This document shows, one piece after another, positions 41,387 through 53,239 of a stretch of 64,000 nucleotides of DNA; position 1 is the stretch's first letter; each line of letters opens with the position of its first letter. The DNA is from Gracilinanus agilis. Lineage: Eukaryota. The notes beneath the pieces are model-generated. The model did not search any database. It worked only from the letters and a program-made list of their open reading frames with translations, and had not been told where the DNA came from. The stretch is from the NCBI RefSeq assembly GCF_016433145.1, contig NC_058133.1:169851553-169915552 (forward strand). The letters run 5' to 3'. Position numbers and translations under genes: made by a program.

Positions 41387-41845
41387 CCTTTACCTTCTAT
41401 CTTAGTATCATTTCTAAGGCAGAAGAGTACAAGGACTAAGCAATTGGAGTTAAGTGACTTGCCCAGGGTCACACAGTAGGAAATAGTCTGGGGTCACATT
41501 TGGATCTGGGTCCTCCCAACTAGGCCTGGCACTCTATCCACTATGCTACTTAGCTGCCCCAATTCCATTGTTTTTTGCTCTGTCTGGTATACAGTTTGGC
41601 TGGAAGATGTGGAAAGGAATAGTGTGAAGTAAAACTTCTGAAAAAAAGATATGGTGATGCCAGTTCATAGAAGGCTTTGAATGCCAAAGTAGTGAGTTTT
41701 GACTTTACCTGAGAGCCAGTAGGGAATCAGTCTCTTAGGACTGAAGTTCTGGGACATATTAAGGATTGGGGACAATATATGTCTCACATAGATTATATAT
41801 GAAATAAACCCTAGGGTCCCCTTGAGGAGTTACAGTGCCTTGAAC

Positions 41846-41973
41846 ATATAGTAAGAATTTAATAAGTACTTTTTGGGGGCAGCTAGGTGGCTTAATGGAT
41901 AGAGAACTAGGCCTGGAGAGGGGAGGTCCTGGGTTCAAATTTGTCCTCAAATACTGCCTTGTTGTCTGATTCT
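41846..41973 (+). repeat. Left copy of a long direct duplication flanking the L1 (29 nt unique sequence plus SINE 5' half)
   Basis: Matches 44059-44178 with 3 substitutions and one 8-bp indel. Confidence 0.95.
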
Positions 41974-41984
41974 CCACCCCTCCC

Positions 41985-44048
41985 TTTTTTAATCAATCAC
42001 TTGTTTATTTTTTTAGAAAATTTTTTTTCATGGTTACATGATTCGGGTTCTTGCTCCCCCCTACCCCCCACAACCAATGCAAATTTCCACTGGTTTCTTC
42101 ATGTATCATCGATCAAGACCTATTTCCATATTATTGATAATTGTTCTAGGGTGGTCATTAAGAGTGCATCCCAAATTGTGTCCACATCAACCCATGTGTT
42201 CAAGCAGTTGTTTTTTTTCCCGTGTTTCTACTCCTGCAGTTCGTCCTCTGAATGTGGGTAGAGTTCTTTTTCATACATCCCTCAGAATTGTCTTGGGTCA
42301 TTGCATTGCTGCTAGTACAGAAGTCCATTACATTCGATTTTACCACAGTGTATCAGTCTCTGTTCTTCTGGCTCTGCTCCTTTCACTGCATCAATTCCTG
42401 GAGGTCTTTCCAGTTCACATGGAATTCCTCCAGTTTATTATTCCTTTGAGCACAATAGTATTCCATCACCAGCATATACCACAATTTGTTCAGCCATTCC
42501 CCAATTGAAGGACATACCCTCATTTTCCAGTTTTTTGCCACCACAAAGAGTGAGGCTATAAATATTTTTGTACAAGTCTTTTTCCCTATAATCTCTTTGG
42601 AGTACAAACCCAGCAATGGTATGGCTGGATCAAAGGACAGGTAATCTTTTAGCTCTCTGAGCATAGTTCCAAATTGCCATCCAGAATGGTTGGATCAGTT
42701 CATGATGCAGCAATGCATTAATGTCCCTATTTTGCCACAATCCCCCCAACATTTATTACTTTCTTTTGTAGTCATGTTAGTCAATCTGCTAGGTGTGAAA
42801 TGGTACCTCAGAGTTGTTTTGATTTGCATTTCTCTAATTATAAGAGATTTAGAACACTTTTTCACATGCTTATTGATAGTTTTTATTTCTTTATCTAAAA
42901 GTTGTCTACTCATATCCCTTGCCCATTTATTGATTGGAGAATGGCTTGATTTTTTGTACAATTGATTTAGCTCCTTGAATATTTGAGTAATTAGACCTTT
43001 GTCAGAGTTTTTTAATCATAAAGATTTTTTCCCAGTTTGCTGTTTCCCTTCTGATTTTAGTTGCATTGTTTTTGTCTGTACAAAACCTTTTTAAATTTAA
43101 TGTAATCGAAATTATTTATTTTACATTTTGTAATTTTTTCTAACTCTTGCTTGGTTTTAAAATCTTTCCTTTCCCAGAGATCTAACAAAAATACTATTAT
43201 GTGTTTGCCTAATTCTCTTATAGTTTTCTTCTTTATATTCAAGTCATTCACTCACTCTGAATTTATCTTGGTGTAGGGTGTGAGATGTTGATCTAAACAT
43301 AATCTCTCCCATATTGTTTTCCAATTTTCCCAGCAGTTTTTGTCAAATAGTGGATTTTTGTCCCAAAAGTTGGGCTCTTTGGGTTTATCATAGATTGTCT
43401 TGCTTACCCCAAGCCTATTCCACTGATCCTCCCTTCTGTCTCTTAGACAGTACCATATTGTTTTGATGGCCACTGCTTTATAGTATAGTTTAATATCTGG
43501 TTCTGCTAGGCTACATTCCTTCATGTTTTTTTTCATTATTTCCCTTGATATTCTTGATCTTTTGTTCTTCCAAATGAAATTTGTTATAGTTTTTTCTAAT
43601 TCTGTAAAAAAGTTTCTTGGTAGTTTGATAGGTATGGCGCTAAATAGATAAATTAATTTGGGTAGAATGGTCATTTTTATTATGTTTGATTGTCCTACCC
43701 ATGAGCAATCAATGTTTTTCCAATTGTTTAGATCTAGTTTTAATTGTTTGGAAAGTGTTTTGTAATTGTGTTCGTATAATTGCTGTGTTTGTTTTGGTAG
43801 ATAGATTCCCATGTATTTTATATTGTCTAGGGTGATTTTAAATGGTGTTTCTCTTTCTACTTCTTGCTGCTGTGATGTGTTGGAAATATATAGAAATGCT
43901 GATGATTTATGTGCATTTATTTTGTATCCTGCAACTTTGCTAAATTTGTTCATTATTTCTACTAGTTTTTAAGTTGATTCTCTAAGATTTTTTAAGTAGA
44001 ACACAATATCATCTGCAAAGAGTGATAGCTTAGTCTCTTCATTGCCTA
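41985..44048 (-). mobile_element. 5'-truncated marsupial L1 (~2.06 kb; end of ORF2 plus 3' UTR)
   Basis: ORF2 peptides in the track (FSKVAGYKINAHKS, WKNIDCSWVG, ILPKLIYLFSAIPIKLP, CSKSLIIREMQIKTTLRYH, KIFIASLFVVAKNWK); T-rich 3' end at left. Confidence 0.97.
43252..43953 (-). pseudogene. Open 233-codon remnant of L1 ORF2 (post-RT region)
   Basis: Clear L1 ORF2 similarity; neighbouring segments fall in other frames, so the element is dead. Confidence 0.9.
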
Positions 44049-44058
44049 TAGTAATTAT

Positions 44059-44178
44059 ATATAGTAAGAATTTAATAAGTACTTTTTGGGGGCAGCTTAG
44101 TGGATAGAGAACTAGGCCTGGAGAGGGGAGGTCCTGGGTTCAAATTTGTCCTCGAATACTGCCTTGTTGTCTGACTCT
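44059..44178 (+). repeat. Right copy of the long duplication; the SINE continues to ~44300
   Basis: See 41846-41973; the SINE 3' half follows only this copy. Confidence 0.95.
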
Positions 44179-44653
44179 TGATAAGCCACTTAATTCCAAT
44201 TGCCTAGCCCTTACTGTTTTTTTTTTTTTTTTTTTCCTTGGAACCATACTTAGTAATATCTATTCTTAGTCAGACAGTAAAGAGATTTTTTTTTTTTTTT
44301 AGTGTTTATCCACTGATTTATTCACCACTTTTTCCCAGCAAGTGAGGACCATTCTTAGGTAGAAAGCCAGAATACCTGGATAGGATGCTTGTTTTCTGGG
44401 GAAAAAAAATTTCAGATGGGGCAGGGGAGGCTCCCTTTTGGGCCTCTAGGAGTGTTCACTTGCTTCTTGGGGATCTCCTTGTCCTTAGCCAGCCTTTATC
44501 TCCAACTTTCCCTGGCAGCTTCTCCAAGAACTCTAAATAAAGAAGGGAGGAGAGGAATGGGTGGATGGGTGGCTGGGTGCCAGGCTGCTGGAAGGATCAG
44601 GTTAGGACAGGTTGGCTTCCCCTGAAATGCCAAGTGGGGACCAGCAGGGCTCC

Positions 44654-44661
44654 TATATAAA
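44654..44661 (+). promoter_or_regulatory. S100A2: TATA box of S100A2
   Basis: TATATAAA 73 nt upstream of donor CTG|GTAAGT. Confidence 0.85.
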
Positions 44662-44684
44662 TTGTCAAGATCTCAACCCTGTTC

Positions 44685-44726
44685 TCTTCTCACTCCTATC
44701 TGAAATCCTTCCTGCTGCCTAACCTG
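44685..44726 (+). other. S100A2: S100A2 non-coding exon 1 (start approximate)
   Basis: Ends at aacctg|GTAAGT (GT at 44727). Confidence 0.75.
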
Positions 44727-45869
44727 GTAAGTCCTTTGCTGCTGGGAGTTTGAGAGGGAAGGGGACTGAATAAAGAAAGGACTCGAGTCCTCTTATTCCA
44801 TTTAGCTTTTTAAAAAAATAATTTTATCTTACTTCTTTGGTCTCTCTCTTCTTTGGACCCCTTTTGTGGGGTCTCTCAGTCTGGGGCCCTCCATGAAGTC
44901 TCTCAGACTAGGACTCAGGTAGAAGGAGATAGGGACTCTTTGAGGAGCCCATCAAGGGCTGACTTCTATCTAGTTTCTATTGAAGAACAAGAGATCTTTG
45001 TCTGATATATCGAAGACCCTGAAACATGGGGCCAGGAGCTCCTGGAATATCAGCTCTCCATTATGGGAAGGAAGGTTTCCCAAGTGGTGGAGGCTTCTAA
45101 CTCTCTCTCTAAAGATCTCAGCCTGGGCGACATTGGGAATGCTGGGGAGCCAGAGAGAAATAAGGGTGATCTTCTCAGCTGGGTTGAAGGTGTGACTATT
45201 ATGGCACTATCTGGAGGAAGCTTAAAATAAATGAATCCTGAATCCTCATGAACTCTAAAGAAAGTGATTGGAATAATTTTGGCCTTTACACAAGGGTGGT
45301 GGTGGTGAGAGGGAGTAGTGCAAAGTCCTATGTGTAGGGATGAAGTTAGGCCCTGGCAAATAACAGGAGAGGGAGAGTGGGGTCCCAGTTTTTCTTCCCT
45401 ACTGATCCCTCCCACGCATTACAAGTAGAACTGGCTGGACTAGGCCACAGAGTGTCTCTCTGCCCCTAGCACCAGACTCCTTTGCCTACCTACCTTTAGA
45501 TCCAACCTGCCTGGATTGGTTTGGGTCTGTTTAGAGCCCAGGACTTGAATGAGATGACCTCAAGGATTTTTTTCTGTCCCAAGGCACCTGGTTCAATTCT
45601 AATCCCACTCCAGTAGGAAAGCTTCTTTTTAAAGTGGGAAATTTTGCTTCTTGAGTACATCTTATATGGGAAGGAATCCAAGAGAAAAAAAGGTCATGGA
45701 GGGAGCTCACAGTCTGATGAAGTCCCTGCTTTGGGGAAGCCCCCATCTGATAGGGAAGAGAGAGATGGCTCCTATAATCATGAATGAAAGTTGATAAGAT
45801 TGGGCACTGGATGAATTGTGGTTGTGAATGTGAAGACCAACGAATAGTACAATATAGCACAGGAAGGTG

Positions 45870-46095
45870 GCACCATATTGCTCTGGAATCAGGAAGACTC
45901 ATCTTGAATTCTAATCTGTCCTGAGACACTTAGTAGTTGTGTGTCCCATGGCAAATCACTTAACTCTGTTTGCCTCAGTTTCTTTATCTGTAAAGTGAGG
46001 TGGAGAAGGAAATGGCAAACCATTACAGTATCTTTGTCAAAAAACTTTAAATGGTATCATAAAGAGCCAAACACAACTGGACAACAACAACAATT
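45870..46095 (+). mobile_element. MAR1-type CORE-SINE in S100A2 intron 1
   Basis: ggagaaggaaatggcaaaccattacagtatctttg tail ending acaacaacaac. Confidence 0.8.
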
Positions 46096-46162
46096 TGGAT
46101 GGGTTAAAAAGGTTCATAAGGAGCCTGTGGAGGGCACCCTTTCTGCCTTGAGGACCTCCTAA

Positions 46163-46435
<273 letters not shown>

Positions 46436-46849
46436 TGATGGGGTAGGAGATACAGAGGAGGAATGATGAATTTAAGAGCCTAAACTAATTCTACTCAATT
46501 ATTTATTAATTCAGTTCATTCATTTAAGTTCTTACTTGAGAGAGGATGTTGTGCTAATTAATGGGATGAAGAAACCATTTCATCTCTCTCAAGATGAAAT
46601 GCTCTTTCAAGTTTATAATAAAAGGAGAAATGCAACACGTGCACAGATAAGTATGATGAGTCCAGGGAGAGTGGGAAATTCTTTCAAGTTTGAAAATGTC
46701 ATCACTTTCATTTGGGGGTAGGGAATTAGGGAAAGCTACGTGGAGGAGGTGGCACCTAAGCTGGTAGTGGAAGTGGAAGGAAGAAGATGTATACACTAGA
46801 AGCAAGCAAGGAAGGAATTCTAGGAATTCAGAGAGGGCCAACAGACAAC

Positions 46850-47090
46850 ATTTTGCTGTTCTGTCTGACTTTTCGTGACCCCATTTGGGGTTTTGTTGGC
46901 AAAGATGCTAGAGGGTTTTGCCATTTCCATCTCCAGCTCATTTTGTAGATGAAGAAACTGAGGCAGAGTGAAGTGACTTGTTCAGGGTCAAATAACTAAT
47001 ACATGTCTGAAGTCAGACATGAACTCAGAATGAGGAGTGTTCTTGACTCTAGGCCCATTACTCTAATCACTGTACTACCTACCTGCCATC
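46850..47090 (-). mobile_element. MAR1-type CORE-SINE in S100A2 intron 2
   Basis: Antisense tail gactttTcgtgaccccatttggggttttgttggcaaagat. Confidence 0.8.
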
Positions 47091-47684
47091 AACAGACAAA
47101 ATAATCCTCTTTTATTCCTGCTGGTGGCACAAATGATACAAAATGATAGAAAACCCCCAAATCACTTTTGGCCATAAAATACATGACGAGGTTGTTTTCT
47201 GACCACCCCTCACTCAGCAGACTTACCTGCCTCATTCATTTTGGTCCTTAGGCAAATTAAAGTGTGCCTTCATTTCTTGAGCTCACAATGACTGATTGTG
47301 GGAGGAGGAGGAGATGTAAGAGAGCTACCAGAGACAGGTAGGAGGCTGCCCTGGTGGGGACAGAAGTCAGTCAGAGACTAAGAATCTGCTTTCAGCAATA
47401 GAGGATTTACTGAATGGGATTTTTTTTTCTCATGCTCTTGCTTTTATTTTGACCAGAGCAGGTAGACTATAAGGAGATCAATCAGTCAATGAATCAATGA
47501 AAAGGCATTTAATACTGTAATCAAATACTTCCTTTGGGGTACTATGCTAGGTGCTGAGGATACAAAGGGAAAAAAAAGCAAGTCCCTTGACCTCAAGGAA
47601 CTTACATTCTATTGGAGAAGACAATATACACAACTATAAACAGGGTAGAACTGGGGGAAGAATGTTAGATTTGGAGACTCTTGA

Positions 47685-47925
47685 TTTGTTGTGGTTCAGT
47701 TGTGTCTGACTTTTTGTGATTCCATTTGGGATTTTCTGGGTAAAGATACTAGAGTGATTTGCCATTTCCTTTCTTAGCTCATTTTACAATGAAGAAACTG
47801 AGGTGAACGGTGTTAAGTGACTTTTCCAGGGTCACACAACCAGTAAGTTTCTGAGGCTAGATATAAACTCAGGTCTTCCTGACTCCAGACTGGGTGCTCT
47901 ATACACTGTGTTACCTTGATGCCCT
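47685..47925 (-). mobile_element. MAR1-type CORE-SINE in S100A2 intron 2
   Basis: Antisense MAR1 tail and CORE. Confidence 0.8.
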
Positions 47926-48435
47926 GAAGTGTCAGGGCCCTGAATTCAAATCCCAGCTCTGCCATTTAGTATTAGTGTGACCTTGGGCAAGTTACTCCAT
48001 CTCTCTGGGCCCTAATTTCCTCATGTGTAAGTTGGAATGGACCAGATGATGTCTCTGGTCCATTCCAACTCTTCATCTCCTTTCTCTGTGACCAAGCATA
48101 TGCAAAATTAATATAGGGTAGTGTTAGAAGAGAGGTTACTAGAGGCTCAGGGGAATCAGGAAAGGCTTTATCTAGAGGATGGTGTCTGAGCTAAGTCCTG
48201 AAGATTTGGATTCTAGGGTTGATGGATGGGGATGACGGGAGGGAAAGCCAAAATAAAGGCAGTGAAATTGATGTGGGTAAGAGCGAAACAGCAGGAAGGT
48301 CACTATGGCTGGACTATGGATTTTGGGAAGGGAAATAATATCTAATGAAGCTGGAGTGTATGTTGGGGCCAAATGGTGAATGACTTGAAATGCCAAACCA
48401 ACCTTTCTTATAAAGAGGAAACAGAAATAGGCAGG

Positions 48436-48657
48436 TAAAGCTGGGTATCTCAGTGGATTGAGAGCCAGGCCTAGAGGCGGGGAGGTCCTAGGTTCAAATC
48501 CGGCCTCAGACACTTCCCAGCTGTGTGACCCTGGGCAAGTCACTTGACCCCCCATTGCCCACCCTTACCACTCTTCCACCTAGGAGCCAATGCACAGAAG
48601 TTAAGGGTTTAAAAAAAATTAAAAAAAAAAAACAAAAACAAAAAATAAAAAAATAAA
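48436..48657 (+). mobile_element. Young short-tail SINE1_Mdo-like SINE
   Basis: cttccacctaggagccaatgcacagaagttaagggttt plus A-rich tail. Confidence 0.9.
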
Positions 48658-48843
48658 CTGAGTAGTGGAGCCTAGGGGAAGTCACAAAAGTCATAGGATC
48701 AGGTCATGTAGAGCTGGAAAGGATTTTAAAGCTTAACTGATCCAACCAACATTTTACAGATGAGAGAACAGACTCTATGAGATGACGTTCCCAACTAAAG
48801 ACACAGAGGTAGAAAGTAGCCAATGTGAACCCAGGGCTTCTGA

Positions 48844-49080
<237 letters not shown>

Positions 49081-52864: not shown

Positions 52865-53239
52865 CTGAAGAAATCATTATTTTTGTTGAGTTCCCCGTTT
52901 TTGTTCTTATAGCCCCCTCTGCCTTGCATAACATCTGACATATAATAACAGTATAAAATAATATTTTAAAAATAAATTTTAAGTTATTTATTTAAAAATA
53001 AATTTTATGTTTTTTAAAAATGTTGCCACAATTTCCCCTACTATCCTTCCCNCTGAAGAAATCATTATTTTTGTTGAGTTCCCCGTTTTTGTTCTTATAG
53101 CCCCCTCTGCCTTGCATAACATCTGACATATAATAACAGTATAAAATAATATTTTAAAAATAAATTTTAAGTTATTTATTTAAAAATAAATTTTATGTTT
53201 TTTAAAAATGTCGCCACAATTTCCCCTACTATCCTTCCC
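52865..53239. other. 187-bp tandem duplicate separated by a single N (probable unmerged contig overlap)
   Basis: 52865-53051 = 53053-53239 except T53024/C53212; N at 53052. Confidence 0.85.

What the first reader, a model, noticed from the sequence alone, without database searches (positions are those of the whole stretch)
41846..44178. L1 insertion with a ~128-bp target-site duplication
Seen: a 5'-truncated minus-strand L1 (41985-44048) lies between two direct copies, 41846-41973 (128 nt) and 44059-44178 (120 nt). They differ by 3 substitutions and one 8-bp indel. The first 29 nt (atatagtaagaatttaataagtacttttt) are non-SINE flank, so this is not two independent SINEs. The SINE 3' half follows only the right copy, and the breakpoint reads ctct|tgat (TCTT/GA, close to the L1 endonuclease site TTTT/AA). 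Established: TPRT normally gives 7-20-bp TSDs; long TSDs are rare and mostly known from cell-culture retrotransposition assays. Inference: first nick on the top strand inside a SINE, second nick ~125 bp to the left, which is the geometry TPRT predicts for a minus-strand L1. The ~2.5% divergence between the copies argues against an assembly artefact and gives an LTR-like clock for the insertion.
Basis: partly seen in the sequence, partly recalled or inferred. Interest (0 to 1): 0.7.

Follow-up and report, generated by a model that had tools for sequence, protein, structure and literature searches.

The report
L1 insertion duplicating 128 host bases
A dead LINE-1 jumping gene in a marsupial genome sits between two copies of the same 128 bases of host DNA, most likely duplicated when it landed (about 15 bases is normal); this is a rare but known outcome, and the two copies are more alike than the element's age predicts, so they are not a reliable clock.

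Summary
Observation confirmed. 41846-41973 and 44059-44178 differ by 3 substitutions and one 8-bp indel and flank a 5'-truncated minus-strand L1 (41985-44049).

For a long target-site duplication (TSD): a relative's contig shows left flank and repeat contiguous; the SINE's 3' half follows only the right copy; the breakpoint reads TCTT/GA, an L1 endonuclease motif; the 5' filler repeats the start of the duplicated stretch. It is rare: 0 of 138 other uninterrupted L1 loci had one, 45 had 11-21-bp TSDs.

The proposed clock fails. The L1 is 3.3-4.7% from its relatives' majority, predicting 8-11 differences between the copies; 3 are seen (p 0.005-0.09). No source copy was found. An 11-nt C-rich spacer makes the 3' junction non-canonical.

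Best reading (0.6): long TSD made at insertion, later homogenised or alike by chance. Main rival (0.2): an ordinary short TSD extended later by repair. The empty allele was not seen. Long L1 TSDs are published from cultured cells, and this scan noted them before in other genomes.

The parts
41846..41973 (+). Left copy of the duplication (128 nt): 29 nt of unique flank plus the 5' half of a SINE (41875-41973)
   Evidence: contiguous with the left flank in organism A
41974..41984 (+). 11-nt C-rich spacer between left copy and L1 T tract; origin unresolved (resembles the L1's own G-rich 3' UTR tract read on the other strand)
   Evidence: junction pattern unique in the genome at up to 1 mismatch
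41985..44049 (-). 5'-truncated dead L1: C-terminal part of ORF2, 3' UTR and decayed A-rich tail; 11 indels against the majority of its nearest copies
44050..44058 (+). 9-nt filler at the L1 5' junction; with the last 3 nt of L1 it forms an 8-mer (44047-44054) identical to 41847-41854 and 44060-44067
44059..44178 (+). Right copy (120 nt), carrying a derived 8-bp deletion
   Evidence: the 8 bp are present in organism A (gap count)
44176..44181 (+). TCTT/GA, inferred first-strand nick between 44179 and 44180
   Evidence: sequence; same motif at 4 of 45 control TSDs, related motifs at 15 of 45 in all; TCTT/g listed as a cleavage site in PMC5223499 Table 3
44179..44285 (+). 3' half of the SINE, present only after the right copy (end approximate)

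Best explanation
A 5'-truncated L1 lies between two 128/120-nt copies of host DNA that were most likely duplicated during its insertion, because the second-strand break likely fell about 128 bases from the first nick instead of about 15. Inferred steps: ORF2p nicked the top strand at TCTT/GA inside an old SINE and reverse-transcribed from that end; the other strand was broken or primed at 41845/41846; the cDNA end joined the start of that stretch after one abortive priming (the 8-mer filler); fill-in copied the 128 bases. The copies were then likely homogenised in part by gene conversion, or stayed alike by chance. Shown directly: the repeat, the L1, the motif, the filler, the flank-repeat adjacency in a relative. 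No function is implied.
For: Removing spacer, L1, filler and one copy restores flank + whole SINE. Organism A's contig covers 41565-41926 in one piece in 2 of the 4 runs laid. The T tract faces the end of the left copy, as TPRT requires for a minus-strand L1. The right breakpoint is an endonuclease motif; the four such 6-mers occur at 0.19% of window positions and at 15 of 45 control TSDs. The 5' filler repeats the start of the duplicated stretch (that 8-mer occurs 7 times in the window counting both strands, including these). TSDs over 100 bp are documented for engineered L1: up to 10% in HeLa, 57-91% in NER-deficient cells (PMC5223499, passages).
Against: Copies differ at 3 of 120 sites where 7.9-11.3 are expected: Fisher p 0.093 (second codon positions, 12 of 366), 0.013 (positions 1+2, 32 of 730), 0.005 (84 of 1779 against the 16 nearest of 65 copies). 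Likelihood ratio 3-30 in favour of a later date unless conversion is invoked, and conversion is not shown. The copies are also more alike than the left copy and flank are to organism A (3 of 120 against 28 of 358, p 0.026; against flank only, 16 of 279, p 0.13). The 3' junction is not canonical: only 1 of 45 control TSDs has 5 or more G in the 11 nt before it, and that one still ends in A's. 0 of 138 control loci have a long TSD, so the prior is low (upper 95% bound 2.1%).
Confidence: 0.6

Rival explanations
1. The L1 inserted at TCTT/GA with an ordinary short TSD. Much later a break near the L1 5' end was repaired by the right-hand end invading the left short TSD, copying 128 bases leftwards and end-joining to the L1. 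The long repeat is then a secondary extension.
For: Explains the age gap directly while keeping the nick motif and the exact restoration of the SINE. A templated filler at the 5' junction is also what microhomology-mediated end joining leaves (established knowledge).
Against: Needs a second rare event at the same locus; no direct sign distinguishes it; does not explain the 3' spacer; no precedent was found in the paper searches. The p values are uncorrected and the locus was picked for the likeness of its copies.
Confidence: 0.2
2. The whole event is young, and the insert was copied from an already decayed L1 locus (trans-mobilised RNA or DNA capture) together with 11 nt of that locus's 3' flank.
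For: Would explain both the age gap and the spacer with no A tract behind it.
Against: No source: best other copies are 85-87% (3' end), 85-92% and 92-94% identical in three searches that each scored 40 of 5,411-25,525 candidates. The spacer-tail pattern matches only this locus. Of 11 other loci sharing one 9-bp deletion junction, the 9 fetched are 77-88% identical and share none of four other deletions.
Confidence: 0.08
3. A tandem duplication existed first and the L1 inserted exactly between the two units.
For: The junction would read TTCT/AT, which resembles listed cleavage sites. One control locus (L013) shows an L1 inside a tandem repeat.
Against: The copies would be older than the L1, which worsens the age gap; the TCTT/GA motif at the far end would be coincidence; no second TSD is seen.
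Confidence: 0.04
4. Assembly artefact.
For: This assembly does make false duplications: a 187-bp, 99.5%-identical repeat flanks the window's only N at 53052. No laid contig spanned the locus, and the run X15 contig did not break where the right copy should join.
Against: No N here; 3 substitutions and an 8-bp indel; two distinct novel junctions. The X15 contig (0 differences) ends at 41884, exactly where the two copies first differ without a gap, and X15 has cover to 42000. X15 may be the source sample, so this is not independent.
Confidence: 0.03

Closest known systems
Large TSDs of engineered human L1 in HeLa and NER-deficient cells (Servant et al., PMC5223499; passages and parts of tables read)
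   Same: L1 at an endonuclease motif flanked by a duplication over 100 bp; TCTT/g is among their cleavage sites; some of their inserts lack a normal tail.
   Different: Here the event is old, inherited and in a marsupial; size is at the low end of their range (up to several kb); the copies look younger than the L1.
Long TSDs of zebrafish ZfL2-2 in chicken DT40 cells (PMC2666801; passages)
   Same: Sporadic long TSD (1 of 25 wild-type insertions, 1228 bp); extra nucleotides at 5' junctions attributed to template jumps.
   Different: Different LINE clade, cultured cells.
L1-bridged tandem duplications and altered target sites in tumours and induced cells (PMC7058536, PMC11702581; passages)
   Same: L1 at the junction of a direct duplication with the endonuclease motif at its 3' breakpoint; 5'-truncated inserts show the most varied target-site changes and templated sequence.
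   Different: Somatic; the tumour example is 22.6 Mb.
Canonical L1 TPRT insertion (TSD 10-20 bp; PMC12350158 passages; 11-21 bp, median 15, in this genome)
   Same: 5' truncation, A-rich tail, endonuclease motif.
   Different: TSD eight times longer; 11-nt spacer between tail and TSD.
Endonuclease-independent L1 insertions (PMC1920257; abstract only)
   Same: Irregular junctions.
   Different: Those lack signs of endonuclease activity and delete target DNA; here the motif is present and DNA is duplicated.

Membership tests
L1 insertion with long TSD made by TPRT | Insert is an L1 with an intact 3' end and A-rich tail | tested here: met
L1 insertion with long TSD made by TPRT | Direct repeat of host DNA abutting both ends of the insert | tested here: met
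   128/120 nt, within 11 and 9 nt of the L1 ends
L1 insertion with long TSD made by TPRT | Endonuclease motif at the TSD end next to the tail | tested here: met
   TCTT/GA at 44176-44181
L1 insertion with long TSD made by TPRT | A tract directly abuts the TSD | tested here: not met
   11-nt spacer at 41974-41984; tail decay or an RT template jump could account for it
L1 insertion with long TSD made by TPRT | Single copy at the empty orthologous site | tested here: inconclusive
   Organism A contig confirms flank-repeat adjacency but ends at 41926
L1 insertion with long TSD made by TPRT | Copies as old as the L1 (pair divergence about twice the L1's own) | tested here: inconclusive
   3 seen, 7.9-11.3 expected, p 0.005-0.09; short-TSD calibration uninformative
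L1 3' transduction or copy of an older locus | A source locus with the same tail and downstream flank | tested here: not met
   (heuristic searches, one assembly)
Endonuclease-independent L1 insertion | No endonuclease motif, target deletion instead of duplication | tested here: not met
   motif present, duplication present
Two independent SINE insertions | Similarity limited to SINE sequence at family-level identity | tested here: not met
   29 nt of unique flank shared; 96.4% against at most 85.2%; L020 shows what such a pair looks like

The most novel reading that the evidence does not exclude
An ordinary short TSD served, long after the insertion, as the homology for a repair event that copied 128 bases of neighbouring DNA across the L1. 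Some 'giant TSDs' in genomes would then be secondary repair scars, younger than their elements.
Probability: 0.2. Interest if true: 0.5.

Novelty: new member of a known kind. Interest (0 to 1): 0.3.

Why it matters
It is an inherited, old example of an outcome described mostly in cultured and tumour cells, and one that TSD-finding pipelines can miss (one pipeline's default limit is 50 bp; PMC3024322, passages). The survey puts a bound on its frequency in this L1 family (0 of 138, under about 2%). The age gap warns against dating insertions from long TSDs. It is a single neutral-looking locus with no sign of function, so its weight is modest.

Tried and rejected
Short TSDs as an internal clock: 22 of 29 clean short TSDs were perfect. 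A first simulation suggested only 2-4% pair divergence, which would remove the age gap, but with shorter assumed TSD lengths 6.5-9% fitted as well, so the test decides nothing.

G-to-A editing of the cDNA as a cause of excess L1 divergence: significant against a set dominated by another sub-lineage (p 0.0002), not against the 16 nearest copies (23 G>A, 17 C>T; p 0.058). Not accepted; removing it would not close the gap.

Spacer origin: it matches the L1's G-rich 3' UTR tract within 2 mismatches in 35 of 99 copies against 63 of 1854 background windows, which fits internal priming followed by a jump to the tail. But the tract is hypervariable, this copy's own tract is 3 mismatches away, and an inverted 2-mismatch match lies inside the repeat itself at a background of 1.3 per kb. 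Unresolved.

Candidate second long TSDs: L020 (185 bp) is two independent SINEs, L013 a tandem repeat with a 16-bp TSD, L040/L089/L061 paralogous repeats; the other anchored hits of 23-55 nt were A- or T-rich or under 87% identical.

Run X4 (organism B) gave no orthologous contig; cover of 41985-41999 in X1 and X2 is within the background seen in X4's neighbouring bin and is no evidence on L1 presence. Pfam found no family above its cut-off in three ORF2 fragments. No earlier notes by place or for the age-gap wording.

Full report
Setting. The window is G000:C4:169851553-169915552 in a 3.70-Gb assembly. Its SINE and L1 families look like those of opossums (labels recalled, from no call). The locus lies about 480 bp upstream of a TATA box (44654-44661) of an S100 gene whose first coding exon matches S100-A2/A4 best.

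Observation. The two copies, their three substitutions and the 8-bp indel are as described. The left flank is single-copy, and its last 30 nt recur only at the right copy. The SINE part is 96.4% identical between the copies against at most 85.2% for 83 other SINE hits. The insert is the 3' 2.07 kb of an L1 on the minus strand. Two details were added: a 9-nt filler at the L1 5' end that, with 3 nt of L1, repeats bases 2-9 of the duplicated stretch, and an 11-nt C-rich spacer between the left copy and the T tract.

Geometry. For a minus-strand L1, TPRT nicks the top strand at the right end of the future TSD. That end reads TCTT/GA (44176-44181). The same motif was found at 4 of 45 control TSDs and the four related 6-mers at 15 of 45; together they occupy 0.19% of window positions. 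A contig of organism A (runs X1 and X2; 2 of 4 runs laid) covers 41565-41926 in one piece with 28 substitutions and 7 gap letters, all 7 in the flank. So flank and repeat were adjacent ancestrally and the 8-bp deletion is derived in the right copy. The contig ends inside the SINE, so it does not show whether organism A has the L1. In run X15, possibly the source sample, a contig with no differences ends at 41884, where the copies fork; it does not break where the right copy should join, which I cannot explain beyond graph simplification (inference).

Frequency. Of 259 fetched loci, 253 had a recognisable L1 3' end, 190 were unique, 162 had both ends inside the stretch, and 24 interrupted ones were dropped, leaving 138. 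Forty-five had a clean TSD of 11-21 bp (median 15). None had a long one within up to 3 kb of flank; the method recovered this locus. Upper 95% bounds: 2.1% of loci, 6.4% of those with a visible TSD. Apparent cases L020 and L013 have other explanations. The loci were the top hits of similarity searches, not a random sample.

Age. If both copies date from the insertion they should differ by twice the L1's own divergence. The L1's nearest copy differs by 7.7%; it differs from the majority of the 16 nearest of 65 copies at 84 of 1779 non-CpG sites (4.7%; those copies 3.0-5.0%) and carries 11 indels. Second codon positions, least affected by master-lineage change, give 12 of 366 (3.3%) against 27 of 40 fetched copies. 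Expected differences in 120 bp are 7.9-11.3; 3 are seen (Fisher p 0.093, 0.013, 0.005). The copies are also closer to each other than this region is to organism A (p 0.026 overall, 0.13 for the flank alone). Against this: the numbers are small, the locus was picked for its likeness, and short TSDs of equally diverged L1s are mostly perfect too (22 of 29), a result that simulation could not separate from detection bias. The gap is probable, not certain. It removes the clock claim and opens two rivals.

Source search. If the insert were a young copy of an old L1, a sister at about 97% should exist. Three DNA searches and two pattern searches found none. These searches are heuristic and cover one assembly.

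Mechanism. Most likely (0.6) a long TSD made at insertion: nick at TCTT/GA, distant second-strand break or primer, cDNA joined to the start of the stretch after an abortive priming, then fill-in. Partial gene conversion or chance accounts for the likeness; conversion between LTRs is documented (PMC4921805, abstract and opening of the introduction) but was not shown here. The main rival (0.2) is later extension of a short TSD by repair. Re-mobilisation of an old copy (0.08), a prior tandem duplication (0.04) and artefact (0.03) follow.

Literature. Long TSDs are known from engineered L1 (PMC5223499, passages and parts of tables; Gilbert 2002/2005 and Symer 2002 only as cited there), from ZfL2-2 (PMC2666801, passages) and as L1-bridged duplications in tumours and induced cells (PMC7058536, PMC11702581, passages). 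Human polymorphic insertions mostly have 10-20 bp (PMC12350158, passages). PMC1920257 was seen as abstract only, PMC3024322 as passages. Nine searches listed no report of a long inherited TSD in a marsupial; most hits were seen as listings only, the library lacks most subscription papers, and supplementary TSD tables were not read and may hold such cases. This scan noted 438-bp to 5.9-kb L1 cases in other genomes; those notes are unchecked.

Verdict. Real, rare, and of a known kind. Interest 0.3.

Noticed in passing
window 44654-49000: An S100 gene (best matches S100-A2 and S100-A4): TATA box 44654-44661, short first exon ending near 44727, coding exon 46193-46333, a further exon near 48929. 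The L1 and duplication lie 0.5-2.8 kb upstream of it.
   Followed up: partly
window 52865-53239: A 187-bp tandem repeat, 99.5% identical, around the window's only N (53052): probably a scaffold-gap overlap artefact.
   Followed up: partly
L013 (G000:C2:552592021-552595445): An L1 with a 16-bp TSD inserted in the first unit of a roughly 100-bp tandem duplication of an older antisense L1.
   Followed up: partly
L020 (G000:C1:536915133-536918545): Two independent SINEs, one inside an L1 and one at its tail, mimic a 185-bp TSD.
   Followed up: yes
control loci L005-L263: Target sites of this L1 family often read TC/AAGA or TC/AAAA on the sense strand (7 of 45) besides TT/AAAA (7 of 45).
   Followed up: partly
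window 42364 and L264-L273: The same 9-bp deletion near the 3' end of ORF2 recurs in unrelated L1 copies (11 other loci within 1 mismatch), likely by short microhomology.
   Followed up: partly
window 41895, 41949, 41970: At all three substitutions the left copy has A or T and the right copy G or C; at two of them the right copy matches the common SINE letter.
   Followed up: no
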